DNA of 64,000 nucleotides from Alphaproteobacteria bacterium (GTDB taxonomy: Bacteria; Pseudomonadota; Alphaproteobacteria; Rs-D84; SZUA-605). The DNA is taken from the NCBI GenBank assembly GCA_031549385.1, contig JAVBPW010000001.1:352001-416000 (forward strand), given 5' to 3'. Below the pieces are notes generated by a model. That model ran no database searches and was not told the origin of the DNA. It saw nothing but the letters and a program-made list of their open reading frames with translations. The stretch's first letter is position 1. Each line of letters opens with the position of its first letter. The translations under genes were made by a program, and so were the position numbers. Shown in pieces: positions 583 through 54,811 of this stretch.

Positions 583-603
583 TTGTTTGTAAGACTAATA
601 GTT

Positions 604-633
604 AAAATGAGCCTGAAATATGGCTCATTTTTT
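604..633 (+). terminator. Intrinsic terminator after tuf
   Basis: AAAATGAGCC-N8-GGCTCATTTT followed by T tract. Confidence 0.85.
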
Positions 634-702
634 GTTGTTTGAAATACAAATTTTACAATATAAATAAAATTGACATTTTATTAATTATTTGTCAATTAAT
701 TA

Positions 703-763
703 TTGACAAATGGTATTTTGTATGCTATATTATAATAGTATTAATAATAAACCTAAATAATAT
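703..763 (+). promoter_or_regulatory. sigma70-type promoter and SD-less leader of cassette gene 764
   Basis: TTGACA(703)-17-TATATT(726) with TG extension; AAACCTAAA at 749-757; no GGAG. Confidence 0.75.
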
Positions 764-1264
764 ATGAAAAAGTTAGTTTTTTTGACCTTAATGGTCGTTG
801 TGTTAGTGTTCGGAGTTAGTTGTAATCGTAATCAGATTGCGCAAAAGCAGGTTGCTTACCGTATAGTTGTTACTGGTGGTGATAAACCAGAAGTGTTCGA
901 ACGGGTATTTCAAGAACCAGATGGTGCGTATCGGGATTATTTTGCTCAGAAAGCTCAAAACTTTTTGACCAAAGTGGAAAGAGACTATCTTTCTTTTATC
1001 GGATGTAAGCCGTTTGGAAGATTGGTTGTTTTTGAACTTTATCTGTTGGTTAATGGTGAAGAAGTTTGGATGCAAACTGAACGCCAATGGGTTTCGCCAT
1101 GTTCTGATTGTGGACAAAATCAGGCGGAAGTAAAACCAACACCAAAGCCAAATAGGCCGGTGCAGGTTAAGCCTAATCCTGGTAATCAACATCCTGTTGA
1201 AACTTACCCTTGCCCTCCGCAACAAGAAAGAACTATTCCTTTACCTGATAATAAATATTATTAG
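764..1264 (+). CDS. Hypothetical lipoprotein with Pro/Gln-rich tail (cassette class)
   Basis: 166 aa ORF, signal peptide ending VSC, own promoter, terminator AGCAGACC-ATCG-GGTCTGCT-T at 1282-1307. Confidence 0.8.
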   Translation: MKKLVFLTLMVVVLVFGVSCNRNQIAQKQVAYRIVVTGGDKPEVFERVFQEPDGAYRDYFAQKAQNFLTKVERDYLSFIGCKPFGRLVVFELYLLVNGEEVWMQTERQWVSPCSDCGQNQAEVKPTPKPNRPVQVKPNPGNQHPVETYPCPPQQERTIPLPDNKYY

Positions 1265-1395
1265 AAGGTAAGGAGCTTATGAGCAGACCATCGGGTCTGC
1301 TTTTTTTATTTTCTAATCTTTGTTGACAAAATATTTTTTAATGGTTAGAATTAAGGTTCTATTTATAAATAAACTTAATTAAAAACCTAAAGAGT

Positions 1396-1662
1396 ATGAG
1401 CAAAATGGAAATTACCGCCCTTTCAATTGGCGGAGGAGATGTAGAAATCTTAAATGGAGTTCAGGTAGCTGTTTTCGGTGTAAATACATTTGAAAAAAAG
1501 CTGCCGGGTGGTGAAGATGCTGTAATGTATCAATTTGCGGAAGCAAACAAGAAGATGATTGATTATTATCATCGAAACCAACTTGCTGGTGAGTACCAGC
1601 TTGAACTTATATCGGCAAAAGGTGAGCCGGTTGTAATTAAGAACTCATTTCTAAAGAATTAG
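1396..1662 (+). CDS. Hypothetical protein (cassette class)
   Basis: 88 aa ORF; TTGACA(1323)-17-TAGAAT(1346); AAACTTAA 1371 and AAACCTAAA 1383; terminator hairpin 1684-1718. Confidence 0.75.
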   Translation: MSKMEITALSIGGGDVEILNGVQVAVFGVNTFEKKLPGGEDAVMYQFAEANKKMIDYYHRNQLAGEYQLELISAKGEPVVIKNSFLKN

Positions 1663-1736
1663 TTTCTGTGTTTCAAATGGTGGTAGGTCGGAAGTCTTTG
1701 TATTTCCGGCCTATTTTTATTATTTTACAAAAGTAC

Positions 1737-1930
1737 TTGACAAAATGAAAATAGATTACTATGTTATGCATAGGTTTAGTATAAAAATTATAAATTACTT
1801 ACTACAAACAAAATTATAAAAATATTTTTTAGGTTTGATTATTATCGGGGTCCACGGGGACCCTTCTTTGACAAAACAGTTCATGTTTGTTAAGTTTATG
1901 TTAGGGGTTGCACGTGCAGCCCTTTTTTTA
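1737..1930 (+). ncRNA. Putative small RNA unit(s) carrying anti-leader sequences
   Basis: TTGACA(1737)-17-TATGTT; no plausible + strand gene; hairpin GGGTCC/GGACCC 1848-1863 + TTCTTT; second TTGACA(1868)-17-TAAGTT; hairpin GGGTTGC/GCAGCCC 1905-1922 + T7. Confidence 0.55.
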
Positions 1931-2106
1931 TTACTTGGATTGATTCCAACCTCTTGTTTTTTGAGTCGTAATTTAACATTTTAATTGCTTTTTTTTCAAG
2001 AATCGTTTATTTTTAAGAAATGCGAAAAAAAACCTTGATTTTTGGTGACTTTTCGTTTAACTTACTTTGGCGATTAAAAAAATCGCTTGGTTTTGTTTGT
2101 TAATTT

Positions 2107-2182
2107 AGGGGTGTAGCTCAGTTGGTAGAGCGTTGGTCTCCAAAACCAAATGTCGGGGGTTCGAATCCTCTCGCCCCTGCCA
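2107..2182 (+). tRNA. trnW: tRNA-Trp (CCA)
   Basis: Cloverleaf AGGGGTG...CGCCCCT-G-CCA, anticodon loop CTCCAAA, GTTCGAATC T-loop; canonical position before secE. Confidence 0.97.
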
Positions 2183-27854: not shown

Positions 27855-27975
27855 TTTAAGTAGGTTTATAAAGTTAGACGGTCTTTTTTAAAAGGCTGTT
27901 TTTTGTTGAAATTTAAATAGTGGGTTTTATAATCAGGTGTGATATTAAAATTTCAAACCTAAAATTATATATGTT

Positions 27976-28269: not shown

Positions 28270-28369
28270 TTTTTTAAAAGGCTGGGTTTCCAGCTTTTTT
28301 TATTGTAATTTTGCCATTAGTTTTTATAATCAAGTGTGATATTAAAATTTCAAACTTAAAACTTAAAAT

Positions 28370-30342: not shown

Positions 30343-30417
30343 TTGACTCGGTGGTGATTTTGTGATATAATGTGATTCGTTAAAAAGATGTATTTGGGCC
30401 ATTAAGGCTCATTTTTT
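30343..30417 (+). ncRNA. Array unit 1: promoter + ~40-nt transcript + terminator
   Basis: TTGACT(30343)-17-TATAAT(30366) with TG; hairpin TGGGCC/GGCTCA + T6. Confidence 0.55.
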
Positions 30418-30418
30418 A

Positions 30419-30523
30419 TTGACTTAGTTAAAGTTTTGAAGTATAATGATTTTTAGCATAGCAAAAGCAGTAAGTTCATATATATATATAAATAGGTTTG
30501 ACCTCCGTACGCGGGGGTTTTTT
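30419..30523 (+). ncRNA. Array unit 2: ~70-nt RNA antisense to a leader + start codon
   Basis: TTGACT(30419)-17-TATAAT(30442); AGTTCAT-(AT)n-AAATAGGTTTGA; hairpin ACCTCCG/CGGGGGT + T tract. Confidence 0.6.
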
Positions 30524-30604
30524 ATTGCCTATTGACAAGTGTTTGTTATTGTGATATATTCTAAGGACAGTTAAATAAATAATAAACCAAAAAACAAACC
30601 GCGT

Positions 30605-30727
30605 ATGTTTATACGAGCGCCCCTGTGGGCAGAATTCCAAAACCAAAAATGTAGCAGTCGCGCCAATATGCAAGCTACAAACAAGACGAACAGAAGTATT
30701 TCGACGTCACCGGTGAATTCGATTTAA
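30605..30727 (+). CDS. Array unit 3: 40-aa small ORF (or ncRNA)
   Basis: TTGACA(30532)-17-TATATT; A/C-rich leader, TATG start, MFIRAPLWAEFQNQKCSSRANMQATNKTNRSISTSPVNSI; terminator CCCAGCC/GGCTGGG 30732-30760. Confidence 0.45.
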   Translation: MFIRAPLWAEFQNQKCSSRANMQATNKTNRSISTSPVNSI

Positions 30728-30779
30728 TCTACCCAGCCATGAGATAGGCTGGGATTTTTTTATTAAAATTTTAAGGGTA

Positions 30780-30990
30780 TTGACTCGTTACCTGATTCGT
30801 GATAGAATCTTATTTACATTTAATTAGTAAACTAAACCTAAAAATAAACGTATGAAATAAAAAGCGGCTGGGCCGCAGAGAAAAAATTAAAAAATAAATA
30901 ATAAAAAACTTAAAACAAGTGCGGATTAGCACCAATTGAGCTTAAGCTCCAATAAAAACATAGAGGCGCCATTAGTGCGCCTTTCTTTTT
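30780..30990 (+). ncRNA. Array unit 4: leader + ATG-AAA-TAA minigene + hairpins
   Basis: TTGACT(30780)-17-TAGAAT; AAACCTAAAAA 30834; ATG AAA TAA 30852-30860; terminator AGGCGC/GCGCCT + T. Confidence 0.55.
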
Positions 30991-31074
30991 GGCTAAATTT
31001 TGACTTTTACATAAGTAACTTGACAAAAGTAAATAATCCCTTATATTGTTGGTATAAACTTAAAAAATATACAT

Positions 31075-31251
31075 ATGGACAAAAAAATTTATGGGGCAAC
31101 AATAGACCCCGATGGTGCAAAATGTTGCACCGAAACTGAAAGACCTCGTAATGAAGGTGTAGTAGCAAAGACATTGGAAGATGTTTTGCACTTTGAAGGA
31201 AAGGTTCCTGACCACTATCTGTGGTTAAGTATTTACAGGGTAAAGCAGTAG
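31075..31251 (+). CDS. Array unit 5: 58-aa hypothetical protein (not in ORF track)
   Basis: TTGACA(31020)-16-TATATT; ATAAACTTAAAAAA leader; MDKKIYGATIDPDGAKCCTETERPRNEGVVAKTLEDVLHFEGKVPDHYLWLSIYRVKQ; terminator 31276-31307. Confidence 0.6.
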   Translation: MDKKIYGATIDPDGAKCCTETERPRNEGVVAKTLEDVLHFEGKVPDHYLWLSIYRVKQ

Positions 31252-31310
31252 TGGAGTGTGAGTTTTAACTCTGTTTAAGGTGTCTTTTTTAGGCACCTTA
31301 TTTTTTTGCC

Positions 31311-36743: not shown

Positions 36744-36863
36744 ATAACTCTATGAAAATAGAGTTATTTTTATTTAGTATTCTCGAAAGAATTTCATAAG
36801 AATTACTTGACAAATAATAAAAATACACTATATTATAAGTATAAACTTAAAAAATATATTAAA
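36744..36863 (+). promoter_or_regulatory. Terminator-promoter-leader module, homologous to 47600-47712 (minus)
   Basis: 28-bp identical hairpin, TTGACAAATAATAA, CACTATATTA, ATAAACTTAAAAA. Confidence 0.8.
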
Positions 36864-39614: not shown

Positions 39615-39693
39615 TTCATTGACAATTTGAATTTTCGTTGGTAAGTATCTATATATTAGGTGTTATAATAATTCAAACTTAAATTTAAAACAT

Positions 39694-47587: not shown

Positions 47588-47732
47588 GTTTATGTTTAAT
47601 TTTTAAGTTTATGGCTTTAATATAGTGGAAAAATTATTATTTGTCAATATTTTACAAAAATATATTATAATATGAATAAAGTAAAAAAATAACTCTATTT
47701 TCATAGAGTTATAATCTATTATAGATTAAATA

Positions 47733-54672: not shown

Positions 54673-54811
54673 GAGTGTATTATACAACTTTTTATATTAA
54701 TTTGAAAAGAAGAAAAAGTTTCTAGTAGTGCTTAAAATAAGTTGACATTATTGATTGTTGCTTTATAGTGGGGAAAGATATTAAAAGTTCAAACTTAAAA
54801 AATCAAAAATT

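What the first reader, a model, noticed from the sequence alone, without database searches (positions are those of the whole stretch)
1737..1930. Small RNA unit carrying three anti-leader segments complementary to the cassette leader
Seen: a + strand promoter and T-tailed hairpins bracket ~100-160 nt with no plausible gene. It contains TAGGTTTAG (1771), TTTTTTAGGTTTGA (1825-1838) and AGTTCATGTTTGTTAAGTTTATG (1878-1900; reverse complement CATAAACTTAACAAAC-ATG-AACT, i.e. leader + start). UUUUAGGUUUGA pairs perfectly with UCAAACCUAAAA (27953-27964); the 14-mer pairs with one G:U to UCAAACUUAAAAAA (dcd, 54789) and two G:U to UCAAAUUUAAAAAA (52598). The leader varies mainly C/T at the two positions facing GG, as expected for RNA-RNA pairing. 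Inference: trans-acting antisense or adaptor RNA for the SD-less class. It lies directly after two cassette genes. The third segment overlaps the second promoter, so it is transcribed only on read-through.
Basis: partly seen in the sequence, partly recalled or inferred. Interest (0 to 1): 0.85.

Follow-up and report, generated by a model that had tools for sequence, protein, structure and literature searches.

The report
Gene-less unit carrying an inverted leader
Between two housekeeping genes of a small bacterial genome lies a promoter-to-terminator unit with no gene; its predicted RNA is the mirror image of a start signal shared by about 70 genes, so it may switch them off together, but no data yet show that it is made or active.

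Summary
The "cassette leader" is real. The motif (T/A)(C/A)AAAC(T>C)TAAAAA sits about 7 nt upstream of the ATG at 70 sites that lack a Shine-Dalgarno sequence. It is specific to this lineage: 35 pattern matches here against 0-4 in each of 30 relatives.

Window 1737-1931 is a gene-less unit on the + strand. Its promoter is among the 23 best cassette-class matches in the genome, and a hairpin and a T-tailed terminator follow. Minus-strand promoter scores are poor.

- **Segment 2 (1825-1838)** is a consensus leader in reverse (PWM 16.9; median of real leaders 16.7). Chance expects 0.009 such hits across all 28 gene-less units. It pairs with the leaders better than the antisense of any of the 70 real leaders.
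- **Segment 3** is moderate (10.7) and also forms an inverted repeat with the second -35.
- **Segment 1** is not leader-like. It belongs to a 5' stretch that may be shared with another gene-less unit.

Nothing shows that the RNA is made or acts, no close relative exists, and Hfq, ProQ and CsrA were not found. My odds: antisense "anti-leader" RNA 0.38, rearrangement relic 0.34. The "adaptor" idea has no support.

The parts
1737..1765 (+). Cassette-class promoter P1737: -35 TTGACA (extended TTGACAAAA), 17-nt spacer, -10 TATGTT
   Evidence: 10 of 12. PWM 19.9 against a median of 20.6 for 30 training promoters; 23 genome sites score as high, and 16 of those are training promoters.
1766..1800 (+). 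Similar to the start of another ORF-less unit on contig C4 (12635 onward).
   Evidence: 79% over 66 nt, E 0.008, a borderline value; alignment in register with the -35 and -10; leader PWM below 4 in either orientation.
1825..1838 (+). Anti-leader (segment 2): exact reverse complement of a consensus C-variant leader TCAAACCTAAAAAA
   Evidence: PWM 16.9 on the - strand; chance rate; best universal partner, 0 of 70 real antisenses equal it; mean unpaired probability 0.38.
1815..1817 (-). ATA on the minus strand, at the modal distance (7 nt) where real leaders have their ATG
   Evidence: Read; the distance distribution is. It hints that the inverted copy derives from a real leader plus start codon.
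1847..1864 (+). G+C-rich hairpin 1 with a weak T tail (TCTTTG); a possible first stop, giving an RNA of about 95-100 nt
   Evidence: folds. My looser scan lists it; the stricter terminator scan does not.
1868..1896 (+). Second promoter-like site: TTGACA-17-TAAGTT. Its transcript would begin at the terminator hairpin.
   Evidence: PWM 14.3; 25th percentile of training promoters is 13.7. Not listed (only 3 of 6 in the -10).
1867..1894 (+). A+U-rich hairpin: the second -35 (TTGACAAAAC) pairs with GTTTGTTAAG of segment 3
   Evidence: minimum-free-energy and centroid structures.
1886..1899 (+). Segment 3 core: reverse complement of ATAAACTTAACAAA, a moderate leader match followed on the - strand by ATG 1884-1882 at an atypically short distance
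   Evidence: PWM 10.7; distances of 0-3 nt occur in 14 of 70 sites.
1903..1931 (+). Intrinsic terminator (9 pairs, 5 G-C) followed by seven T; end of the unit, giving an RNA of about 160 nt on read-through of hairpin 1
1795..1884 (-). 29-aa minus-strand ORF (rival reading); it runs through hairpin 1 and segment 2
   Evidence: The best minus-strand promoter scores are only 8.3 and 8.1.
703..1302 (+). Cassette 1: promoter 703-731, C-variant leader 749-756, ORF of 166 aa (764-1264, N-terminus resembling a lipoprotein signal by eye, no Pfam family), terminator 1281-1302
   Evidence: An exact contig from RNA run X2 covers 762-1178.
1323..1715 (+). Cassette 2: promoter 1323-1351, leaders 1371-1378 and 1383-1390, ORF of 88 aa (1396-1662, no Pfam family), terminator 1682-1715
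   Evidence: An exact contig from RNA run X2 covers 1420-1687.
2107..2179 (+). tRNA-Trp (CCA), start of the native tRNA-Trp/secE/nusG/rplK block that bounds the insertion

Best explanation
Window 1737-1931 is a gene-less, + strand transcription unit of the same build as the neighbouring cassettes: a TTGACAAA-type promoter, then a hairpin and a terminator. In place of 'leader-ATG-ORF' it carries the leader upside down. Transcription from P1737 (start near 1772, inferred) would give an RNA of about 95 nt ending after hairpin 1, or about 160 nt ending at the terminator.

The stretch 5'-UUUUUUAGGUUUGA-3' of that RNA, with its A/U-rich flanks, is complementary to the lineage-specific leader. The leader lies about 8-25 nt upstream of the ATG in about 70 mRNAs that have no SD. 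The G opposite the variable C/U position allows pairing with both variants.

The mechanism I think most likely is inferred, not shown. The RNA pairs in trans with these 5' UTRs inside the ribosome's landing zone and lowers their translation or stability. That would make it a class-wide 'anti-leader' repressor. It probably arose from an inverted copy of a real leader.

Shown: the anatomy, the non-randomness, the strand of the signals and the predicted pairing. Not shown: that the RNA exists, or that it acts.
For: - **Promoter:** PWM 19.9, one of 23 genome sites at that level; 10 of 12.
- **Terminator:** + oriented with seven T. The + strand folds better than shuffles (z = -2.87); the - strand gives z = -1.43.
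- **No gene:** the longest + strand ATG ORF is 17 aa.
- **Segment 2:** leader PWM 16.9, with 0.009 expected by chance across all 28 ORF-less units.
- **Outlier:** among the 40 best cassette-class promoters, this is the only one followed by a strong antisense leader (16.9; next 5.8; all others at most 4.1).
- **Pairing in register:** it pairs at 13 or more of 14 positions with 38 of 70 leaders and has runs of 11 or more with 58 of 70. None of the 70 antisenses of real leaders does as well.
- **Duplex energies:** leader class mean -14.0 kcal/mol, with 52 of 70 at or below -12. SD class mean -8.5, with 29 of 330 at or below -12. Shuffled RNA -7.8 +/- 0.9.
- **Neighbours:** the two adjacent cassettes pair at -16.2 and -16.5.
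- **The leader acts at RNA level:** it is tied to the ATG (median 7 nt, sd 4.1) and is almost always in sense orientation.
Against: - No evidence that the RNA is made.
- No relative is close enough to test conservation. The nearest genome has nusG at 68% identity and a tuf/tRNA-Trp spacer of only about 260 nt without any of this. Searches found nothing closer than about 55%.
- Hfq, ProQ and CsrA were not found in a genome that is 97% complete.
- The GUUUG core of segment 2 is predicted to be mostly paired with CAAAC at 1805-1809. Mean unpaired probability of the 14-mer is 0.38.
- With 38-nt contexts, 12 of 70 antisenses of real leaders pair as well or better by energy. The flanks are therefore not special.
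- The energy enrichment follows by construction from the inverted motif.
- The unit looks like a mosaic. Its 5' part may be shared with a C4 unit. A second promoter fires into the terminator. An ATA sits where an ATG would be on the - strand.
- It is the only unit of its kind. Unit B at 30419-30519 reaches only PWM 5.8.
Confidence: 0.38

Rival explanations
1. The unit is a rearrangement relic. It is what remains of one or two cassettes after internal inversion and deletion in a recently inserted, fast-changing spacer. Promoter and terminator shells survive. The inverted leader is a fossil of a real leader plus start codon. Any RNA made is neutral noise.
For: - About 640-1935 is a lineage-specific insertion. 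The same-family genome G001 has about 260 nt between tuf and tRNA-Trp, and only window 1954-2009 matches its spacer.
- Promoter-leader modules form a dispersed family of similar sequences: 59 upstream regions link at E <= 1e-4, with up to 81% identity over 92 nt. Young copies would therefore be close to the consensus.
- Other decayed or gene-less units exist: 28 ORF-less promoter-terminator units, 5 of the 40 best promoters have no ORF, and window 30343-31300 is a row of tiny units that includes a leader followed by ATG AAA TAA.
- ATA lies at the modal ATG distance on the - strand.
- The second promoter would start inside the terminator.
- The 5' part resembles another unit.
Against: - A plain inversion of a cassette would also flip its promoter and terminator, but both remain + oriented.
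- The inverted copy matches the consensus at all 13 fixed positions and carries the minority C variant (10 of 70, though both neighbouring cassettes have it). No antisense of a real leader pairs as broadly (0 of 70).
- The promoter is still among the best in the genome.
- A 931-kb genome is not expected to keep useless DNA for long (established knowledge of reduced genomes; inference).
Confidence: 0.34
2. It is a gene-less + strand RNA gene whose function has nothing to do with the leader, for example an unknown structured RNA or an insulating terminator array ahead of the tRNA-Trp/secE/nusG operon. The inverted leader would be incidental.
For: - Strong promoter, three hairpins and a fold z-score of -2.87.
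- The 5' segment may be shared with the C4 unit, which continues into a G+C-rich structured part.
- Other gene-less units have no anti-leader.
Against: - No Rfam family comes near its threshold; the best are 22 bits against cut-offs of 45-59.
- The fold signal comes mainly from the terminator-type hairpins.
- Chance does not explain the inverted leader.
Confidence: 0.15
3. It is a minus-strand small gene: an inverted cassette in which the leader-like 1899-1886 and ATG 1884 drive a 29-aa peptide (1884-1795).
For: There is a leader-like site (PWM 10.7) directly before an ATG. Distances of 0-3 nt occur in 14 of 70 real sites. A weak - strand promoter lies at 1999-1970 (9 of 12).
Against: - Minus-strand promoter PWM is only 8.3.
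- The ORF runs through the G+C hairpin and through segment 2.
- No minus-strand terminator follows; the T-runs are on the + side.
- The peptide is too short for the homology tools, so it could not be tested that way.
Confidence: 0.06

Closest known systems
C-rich (UCCC) motif sRNAs of Staphylococcus and Bacillus (RsaE/RoxS class, RNAIII loops); the M. tuberculosis 6C sRNA is a related case
   Same: One small RNA carries a short unpaired motif complementary to a translation-start signal shared by many mRNAs, and so blocks formation of the initiation complex. Expression is Hfq-independent. Sources: PMC2790875, abstract and passages read; PMC6486639, title and start of the abstract only, from the listing.
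   Different: Those RNAs target the universal G-rich Shine-Dalgarno sequence with C-rich loops, are conserved across species and have been shown experimentally. Here the target would be an A/U-rich, lineage-specific leader without an SD. The complementary stretch is 14 nt or more, it sits in a single gene in a single genome, and nothing has been shown experimentally. There is no unpaired UCCC motif, so it is not a member of that class.
Generic trans-encoded base-pairing sRNA of Proteobacteria (own promoter, Rho-independent terminator, pairing at the translation initiation region)
   Same: Own sigma-70-type promoter, terminator, 95-160 nt, no ORF, and complementarity next to start codons.
   Different: The usual chaperones Hfq and ProQ were not found. 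The pairing region lies next to the 3' hairpin rather than at the 5' end. The putative regulon is defined by a shared leader, not by gene-specific sites.
This genome's own promoter-leader-ORF-terminator cassettes
   Same: The same promoter type and the same terminator type, in tandem with two intact cassettes.
   Different: The leader is in reverse orientation and there is no ORF.
Antisense RNAs of type I toxin-antitoxin pairs encoded beside their target
   Same: A small RNA encoded next to genes whose 5' UTRs it can pair with over about 20 nt.
   Different: The neighbouring ORFs (166 aa and 88 aa) are not small hydrophobic toxins. The complementarity is to a motif shared by about 70 genes, not to one partner. 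I rejected this as a family assignment.

Membership tests
Trans-encoded base-pairing sRNA | Own promoter | tested here: met
   Prediction only: 10 of 12; PWM 19.9, among the top 23 genome-wide.
Trans-encoded base-pairing sRNA | Intrinsic terminator on the same strand | tested here: met
   (1903-1924 plus seven T).
Trans-encoded base-pairing sRNA | No protein-coding frame | tested here: met
   the longest + strand ATG ORF is 17 aa and has neither a leader nor an SD.
Trans-encoded base-pairing sRNA | Exists as a discrete transcript | not testable with these tools
   Only assembled contigs of one RNA run were available. Contigs cannot show the starts, ends or strand of a small RNA.
Trans-encoded base-pairing sRNA | Complementarity to target mRNAs beyond controls | tested here: met
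   with the caveat that the enrichment follows from the inverted motif.
Trans-encoded base-pairing sRNA | Conservation in related genomes | tested here: inconclusive
   Not found in the 30 relatives searched, but none is closer than nusG 68% identity, and the leader class itself is lacking there.
Trans-encoded base-pairing sRNA | Matchmaker chaperone (Hfq or ProQ) in the genome | tested here: not met
   no match in a genome that is 97% complete. Chaperone-independent sRNAs are known (PMC2790875 abstract).
UCCC / C-rich motif SD-targeting sRNAs | Unpaired C-rich motif that pairs with the SD | tested here: not met
   In the sequence and fold, the only C-runs lie in the stems of hairpin 1 and the terminator. 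The pairing stretch is U/G/A-rich.
Any Rfam family | Score at or above the family's gathering threshold | tested here: not met
   nothing in 1737-1931; the best match is 22 bits against cut-offs of 45 or more.
Cassette of this genome (promoter, sense leader, ORF, terminator) | Sense-strand leader 0-21 nt before an ATG ORF of at least 30 aa | tested here: not met
   (no + strand PWM hit of 4 or more).
Cassette of this genome (promoter, sense leader, ORF, terminator) | Cassette-class promoter and terminator | tested here: met
Type I toxin-antitoxin antisense RNA | Adjacent small hydrophobic toxin ORF as the specific target | tested here: not met
   the neighbours are 166 aa and 88 aa with no Pfam family. 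By eye, the 29-aa minus-strand ORF is not hydrophobic.

The most novel reading that the evidence does not exclude
The RNA is the dedicated trans-acting partner of a lineage-specific, SD-independent translation leader. The leader spread to about 8% of the genes of a reduced alphaproteobacterial genome that lacks Hfq, ProQ and CsrA. In this reading the RNA is either a master switch that silences or releases the whole leader class at once or, more boldly, an adaptor that the leader needs in order to be read. The adaptor version has no support: no SD-like element was found in the RNA (-11.0 kcal/mol against shuffles at -9.0 +/- 2.2, with 50 of 300 shuffles as good). The master-switch version is my best explanation at 0.38. 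The probability given here is for the obligate-partner or adaptor form.
Probability: 0.05. Interest if true: 0.9.

Novelty: new variant of a known kind. Interest (0 to 1): 0.5.

Why it matters
If the RNA is real and active, a single small RNA would control a whole class of mRNAs through a start signal that is neither the Shine-Dalgarno sequence nor conserved outside this lineage. That would tie two open questions together. One is how SD-less mRNAs are recognised. The other is how a new translation signal and its regulator arise together, in a tiny host-associated genome without the usual RNA chaperones.

Even if the unit is only a relic, the leader class behind it deserves study. It has 70 sites, gave 35 pattern matches here against 0-4 in each of 30 relatives, is carried on a dispersed promoter-leader module, and also fronts housekeeping genes (a DAHP_synth_1/KdsA-type gene and dcd).

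Tried and rejected
- **Chance.** Rejected for segment 2 by the Markov null. The simple 8-mer count in the window was not significant.
- **Paralogous copy.** blastn of 1660-2110 against the genome found no long copy. The only notable match was 66 nt at 79% (E 0.008) to C4:12657-12718.
- **A family of anti-leader sRNAs.** Of the 28 ORF-less units, only this one carries a strong anti-leader. Unit B (30419-30519...TAGGTTTGA directly before its terminator) scores 5.8, and its alignment to this unit is not convincing.
- **Terminal inverted repeats on cassettes.** Rejected: only 18 intergenic orphan motif sites exist, and most of those I inspected are real leaders with longer spacers or tandem motifs.
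- **Leader pairing with 16S rRNA.** The best match is 8 contiguous pairs (one G:U) to the 5' end of the 16S rRNA. I recall this stretch as universal in bacteria and buried in the mature subunit; no call tested that. I do not treat the match as meaningful.
- **An SD-like element in the RNA.** Not significant.
- **Conservation.** No DNA match in 30 relatives. ORF166 has no relative in genome contigs. nusG scans of genome contigs and metagenome contigs found nothing closer than about 55%, so no covariation test was possible.
- **Known RNAs.** No Rfam match for this unit or for the C4, C7:52.5k and C2:100.8k units. My ARAGORN run found no tmRNA, but the alpha_tmRNA model did, at a different place.
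- **Expression.** In RNA run X2, kept as assembled contigs, no contig covers 1713-2015, while DNA run X1 does cover it. X3 held next to nothing.
- **Closed or unused tools.** Paper supplements were not consulted.
- **Whether the motif is in print.** One full-text search for four spellings of it returned 54 papers. The 10 listed were all unrelated by title. I make no wider claim than that.

Full report
**Setting.** The window is C7:352001-416000 of a 931-kb genome with 30% G+C, in 8 contigs and 97% complete. A two-piece alpha-type tmRNA and the nearest named nusG relatives point to a reduced alphaproteobacterium. The 16S rRNA has a normal CCUCC tail, and most genes have an AAGGAG-type Shine-Dalgarno sequence. 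The locus reads: tuf (1-582), two small cassettes (ORF of 166 aa at 764-1264; ORF of 88 aa at 1396-1662), the finding (1737-1931), then tRNA-Trp (2107-2179), secE, nusG, rplK and so on. Each cassette has its own TTGACA promoter and its own terminator.

**The leader class is real and lineage-specific.** AAAC[CT]TAA peaks 17-23 nt upstream of ATG codons (53 of 93 upstream hits). A weight matrix built from 70 instances gives (T/A)(C/A)AAAC(T/C)TAAAAA, with T in 60 and C in 10 at the variable position. Genome-wide there are 124 sites scoring 12 or more. Of these, 70 are intergenic and followed by an ATG ORF of at least 30 aa, 18 are intergenic orphans and 36 lie in coding sequence. A few genes carry two tandem sites.
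- Geometry: the motif ends a median of 7 nt before the ATG (sd 4.1). In 51 of 70 cases a promoter matching 9 of 12 or better lies upstream, with its -10 a median of 21 nt before the motif. The motif therefore lies in the 5' UTR.
- Lineage: the pattern AAACTTAAAAA-N6-12-ATG occurs 35 times here, against 0-4 times in each of 30 relatives and once for the reversed control.
- Spread: 59 upstream regions link by similarity, up to 81% over 92 nt. Promoter plus leader therefore behaves as a dispersed module.
- Gene content: the class includes housekeeping genes (a DAHP_synth_1/KdsA-type gene and dCTP deaminase) as well as many orphans without a Pfam family.

**The spacer is an insertion.** The only same-family genome has about 260 nt between tuf and tRNA-Trp, and only window 1954-2009 resembles that spacer. 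About 640-1935 is therefore new DNA made of three promoter-to-terminator modules, all pointing in the + direction.

**Anatomy of the third module.**
- P1737 (TTGACA-17-TATGTT) scores 19.9 on a matrix trained on 30 cassette promoters, whose median is 20.6. Only 23 sites in the genome score as high, and 16 of them are training promoters.
- A second site, P1868, scores 14.3. The best minus-strand sites score 8.3 and 8.1.
- Downstream lie a G+C hairpin (1847-1864, weak T tail), an A+U hairpin in which the second -35 pairs with GTTTGTTAAG, and a terminator (1903-1924) followed by seven T.
- No + strand ORF exceeds 17 aa. No Rfam family matches.

**The three segments.**
- Segment 2 (1825-1838) is the exact reverse complement of TCAAACCTAAAAAA and scores 16.9, like a median real leader (16.7).
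- Segment 3 scores 10.7.
- Segment 1 scores below 4. It instead lies in a promoter-proximal stretch similar to the start of another gene-less unit at C4:12635 (79% over 66 nt, E 0.008, in register with the -35 and -10). That similarity is borderline.

**Is it chance?** Under a second-order Markov model of intergenic DNA, a hit of 16.9 or more is expected 0.84 times across all intergenic DNA. Across the 28 gene-less promoter-terminator units it is expected only 0.009 times. Among the 40 best cassette-class promoters, this is the only one followed by a strong antisense leader (16.9; next 5.8; the rest at most 4.1). The inverted leader is not chance. It is either a copy of a real leader or a selected sequence.

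**Pairing.**
- The unstructured part of the RNA (1771-1847) gives mean duplex energies of -14.0 kcal/mol with the 70 leader sites. The 330 SD-type 5' UTRs give -8.5. Shuffled versions of the RNA against the leader sites give -7.8 +/- 0.9. This follows largely by construction.
- More telling is the in-register comparison. The 14-mer pairs (G:U allowed) at 13 or more of 14 positions with 38 of 70 leaders and has runs of 11 or more with 58 of 70. None of the 70 antisenses of real leaders does as well. The reason is that it combines the consensus at every fixed position with the minority C variant, whose complementary G also pairs with U.
- With 38-nt contexts the advantage shrinks: 12 of 70 are as good or better.
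- The two neighbouring cassettes pair at -16.2 and -16.5 kcal/mol.
- Accessibility is only moderate. The GUUUG core is predicted to pair with CAAAC at 1805-1809, and the mean unpaired probability is 0.38.

**Evidence against function, or missing.**
- Hfq, ProQ and CsrA were not found.
- No close relative exists in any collection searched, so neither conservation nor covariation could be tested.
- One RNA run of the source habitat, available only as contigs, holds exact contigs for the two cassette ORFs (762-1178 and 1420-1687) and for tRNA-Trp/secE (2129-2464). That an RNA library holds them does not prove transcription, and contigs cannot show a small RNA.
- Several features read like wreckage. 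The second promoter would start inside the terminator. On the minus strand an ATA sits exactly where real leaders have their ATG. Other gene-less or decayed units exist, notably the row of tiny units at window 30343-31300.

**Weighing.**
- A whole-cassette inversion is excluded, because promoter and terminators kept the + orientation.
- A minus-strand 29-aa gene is unlikely. Its promoter is poor, the ORF runs through a hairpin, and no terminator follows.
- That leaves a + strand gene-less unit with an inverted leader. It is either kept because its RNA pairs with the leader class (0.38) or is a young relic (0.34). A leader-unrelated RNA function (0.15) and the small minus-strand gene (0.06) trail behind.
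- The adaptor idea lacks any SD-like element in the RNA.

**Comparison with known systems.** The unit would work like the chaperone-independent sRNAs that use one motif against a shared translation-start signal. An example is the UCCC motif of RsaE and related RNAs against the SD (PMC2790875, abstract and passages). It is not a member of that class. There is no C-rich motif, the target differs, and there is no homology to any Rfam family. If real, it is a new variant of a known kind. A full-text search for the motif strings found only unrelated papers among the 10 listed of 54.

Noticed in passing
genome-wide; in the window at e.g. 749-756, 1383-1390, 27953-27964, 28352-28366, 31056-31063, 36843-36850, 39675-39682, 47603-47610 (-), 54789-54802: A lineage-specific leader without an SD, (T/A)(C/A)AAAC(T>C)TAAAAA, lies about 7 nt before the ATG at 70 sites. 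The pattern matched 35 times here against 0-4 times in each of 30 relatives. It is carried on a dispersed promoter-leader module (59 upstream regions are mutually similar). It also fronts housekeeping genes (a DAHP_synth_1/KdsA-type gene and dcd). What reads it is unknown..
   Followed up: partly
window 30343-31300: A row of five tiny + strand promoter-to-terminator units. Two give RNAs of only about 40-75 nt with no ORF. One of these, 30419-30519, ends ...AAATAGGTTTGA directly before its terminator, which is a weak anti-leader (PWM 5.8). One unit has a 40-aa ORF. One has a good leader followed by ATG AAA TAA and then a long gene-less tail. The last is a normal 58-aa cassette..
   Followed up: partly
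G000 C4:12635-12870 (L180) and C7:52506-52240 minus (L181): Two further strong cassette-class promoters are followed by G+C-rich, apparently structured sequence of about 190-260 nt. They have no ORF and no Rfam match at E <= 0.01, so they are candidate unknown RNAs. The first 40 nt or so of the C4 unit's transcript resemble those of the unit studied here..
   Followed up: partly
L001 (G000 C6) about 1259-1290: A leader-like ACAAACTTAATTAA lies 5 nt upstream of the mature 16S rRNA 5' end (the model match starts at 1277) and is complementary to it (...GAGAGTTTGA). The leader motif in general can form 8 contiguous pairs with that 16S 5' end. This is probably precursor-rRNA leader pairing and otherwise coincidence..
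   Followed up: no
window 583-2106: The tuf/tRNA-Trp spacer is 1524 nt here, against about 260 nt in the only same-family genome. A conserved housekeeping junction has served as a landing place for three cassette-type modules..
   Followed up: partly
whole genome G000: Hfq, ProQ, CsrA and 6S RNA were not found. The SRP RNA matches only below its cut-off (33.9 against 40 bits, C2:47903-47991). An alpha-type two-piece tmRNA lies at C7:155577-155929, although my ARAGORN run with the tmRNA option alone missed it..
   Followed up: no
window 762-1178 and 1420-1687: Exact contigs of a metatranscriptome run of the source habitat cover both orphan cassette ORFs. Their word depths (32 and 25) are higher than that of the contig over tRNA-Trp/secE (2.6). 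Contig depth is a poor measure of expression..
   Followed up: no
G000 C7:347810 region (minus strand): A good leader (PWM 14.6) is followed after 2 nt by an 11-codon ORF whose coding sequence is itself the terminator hairpin. This is another mini-ORF or decayed cassette..
   Followed up: no
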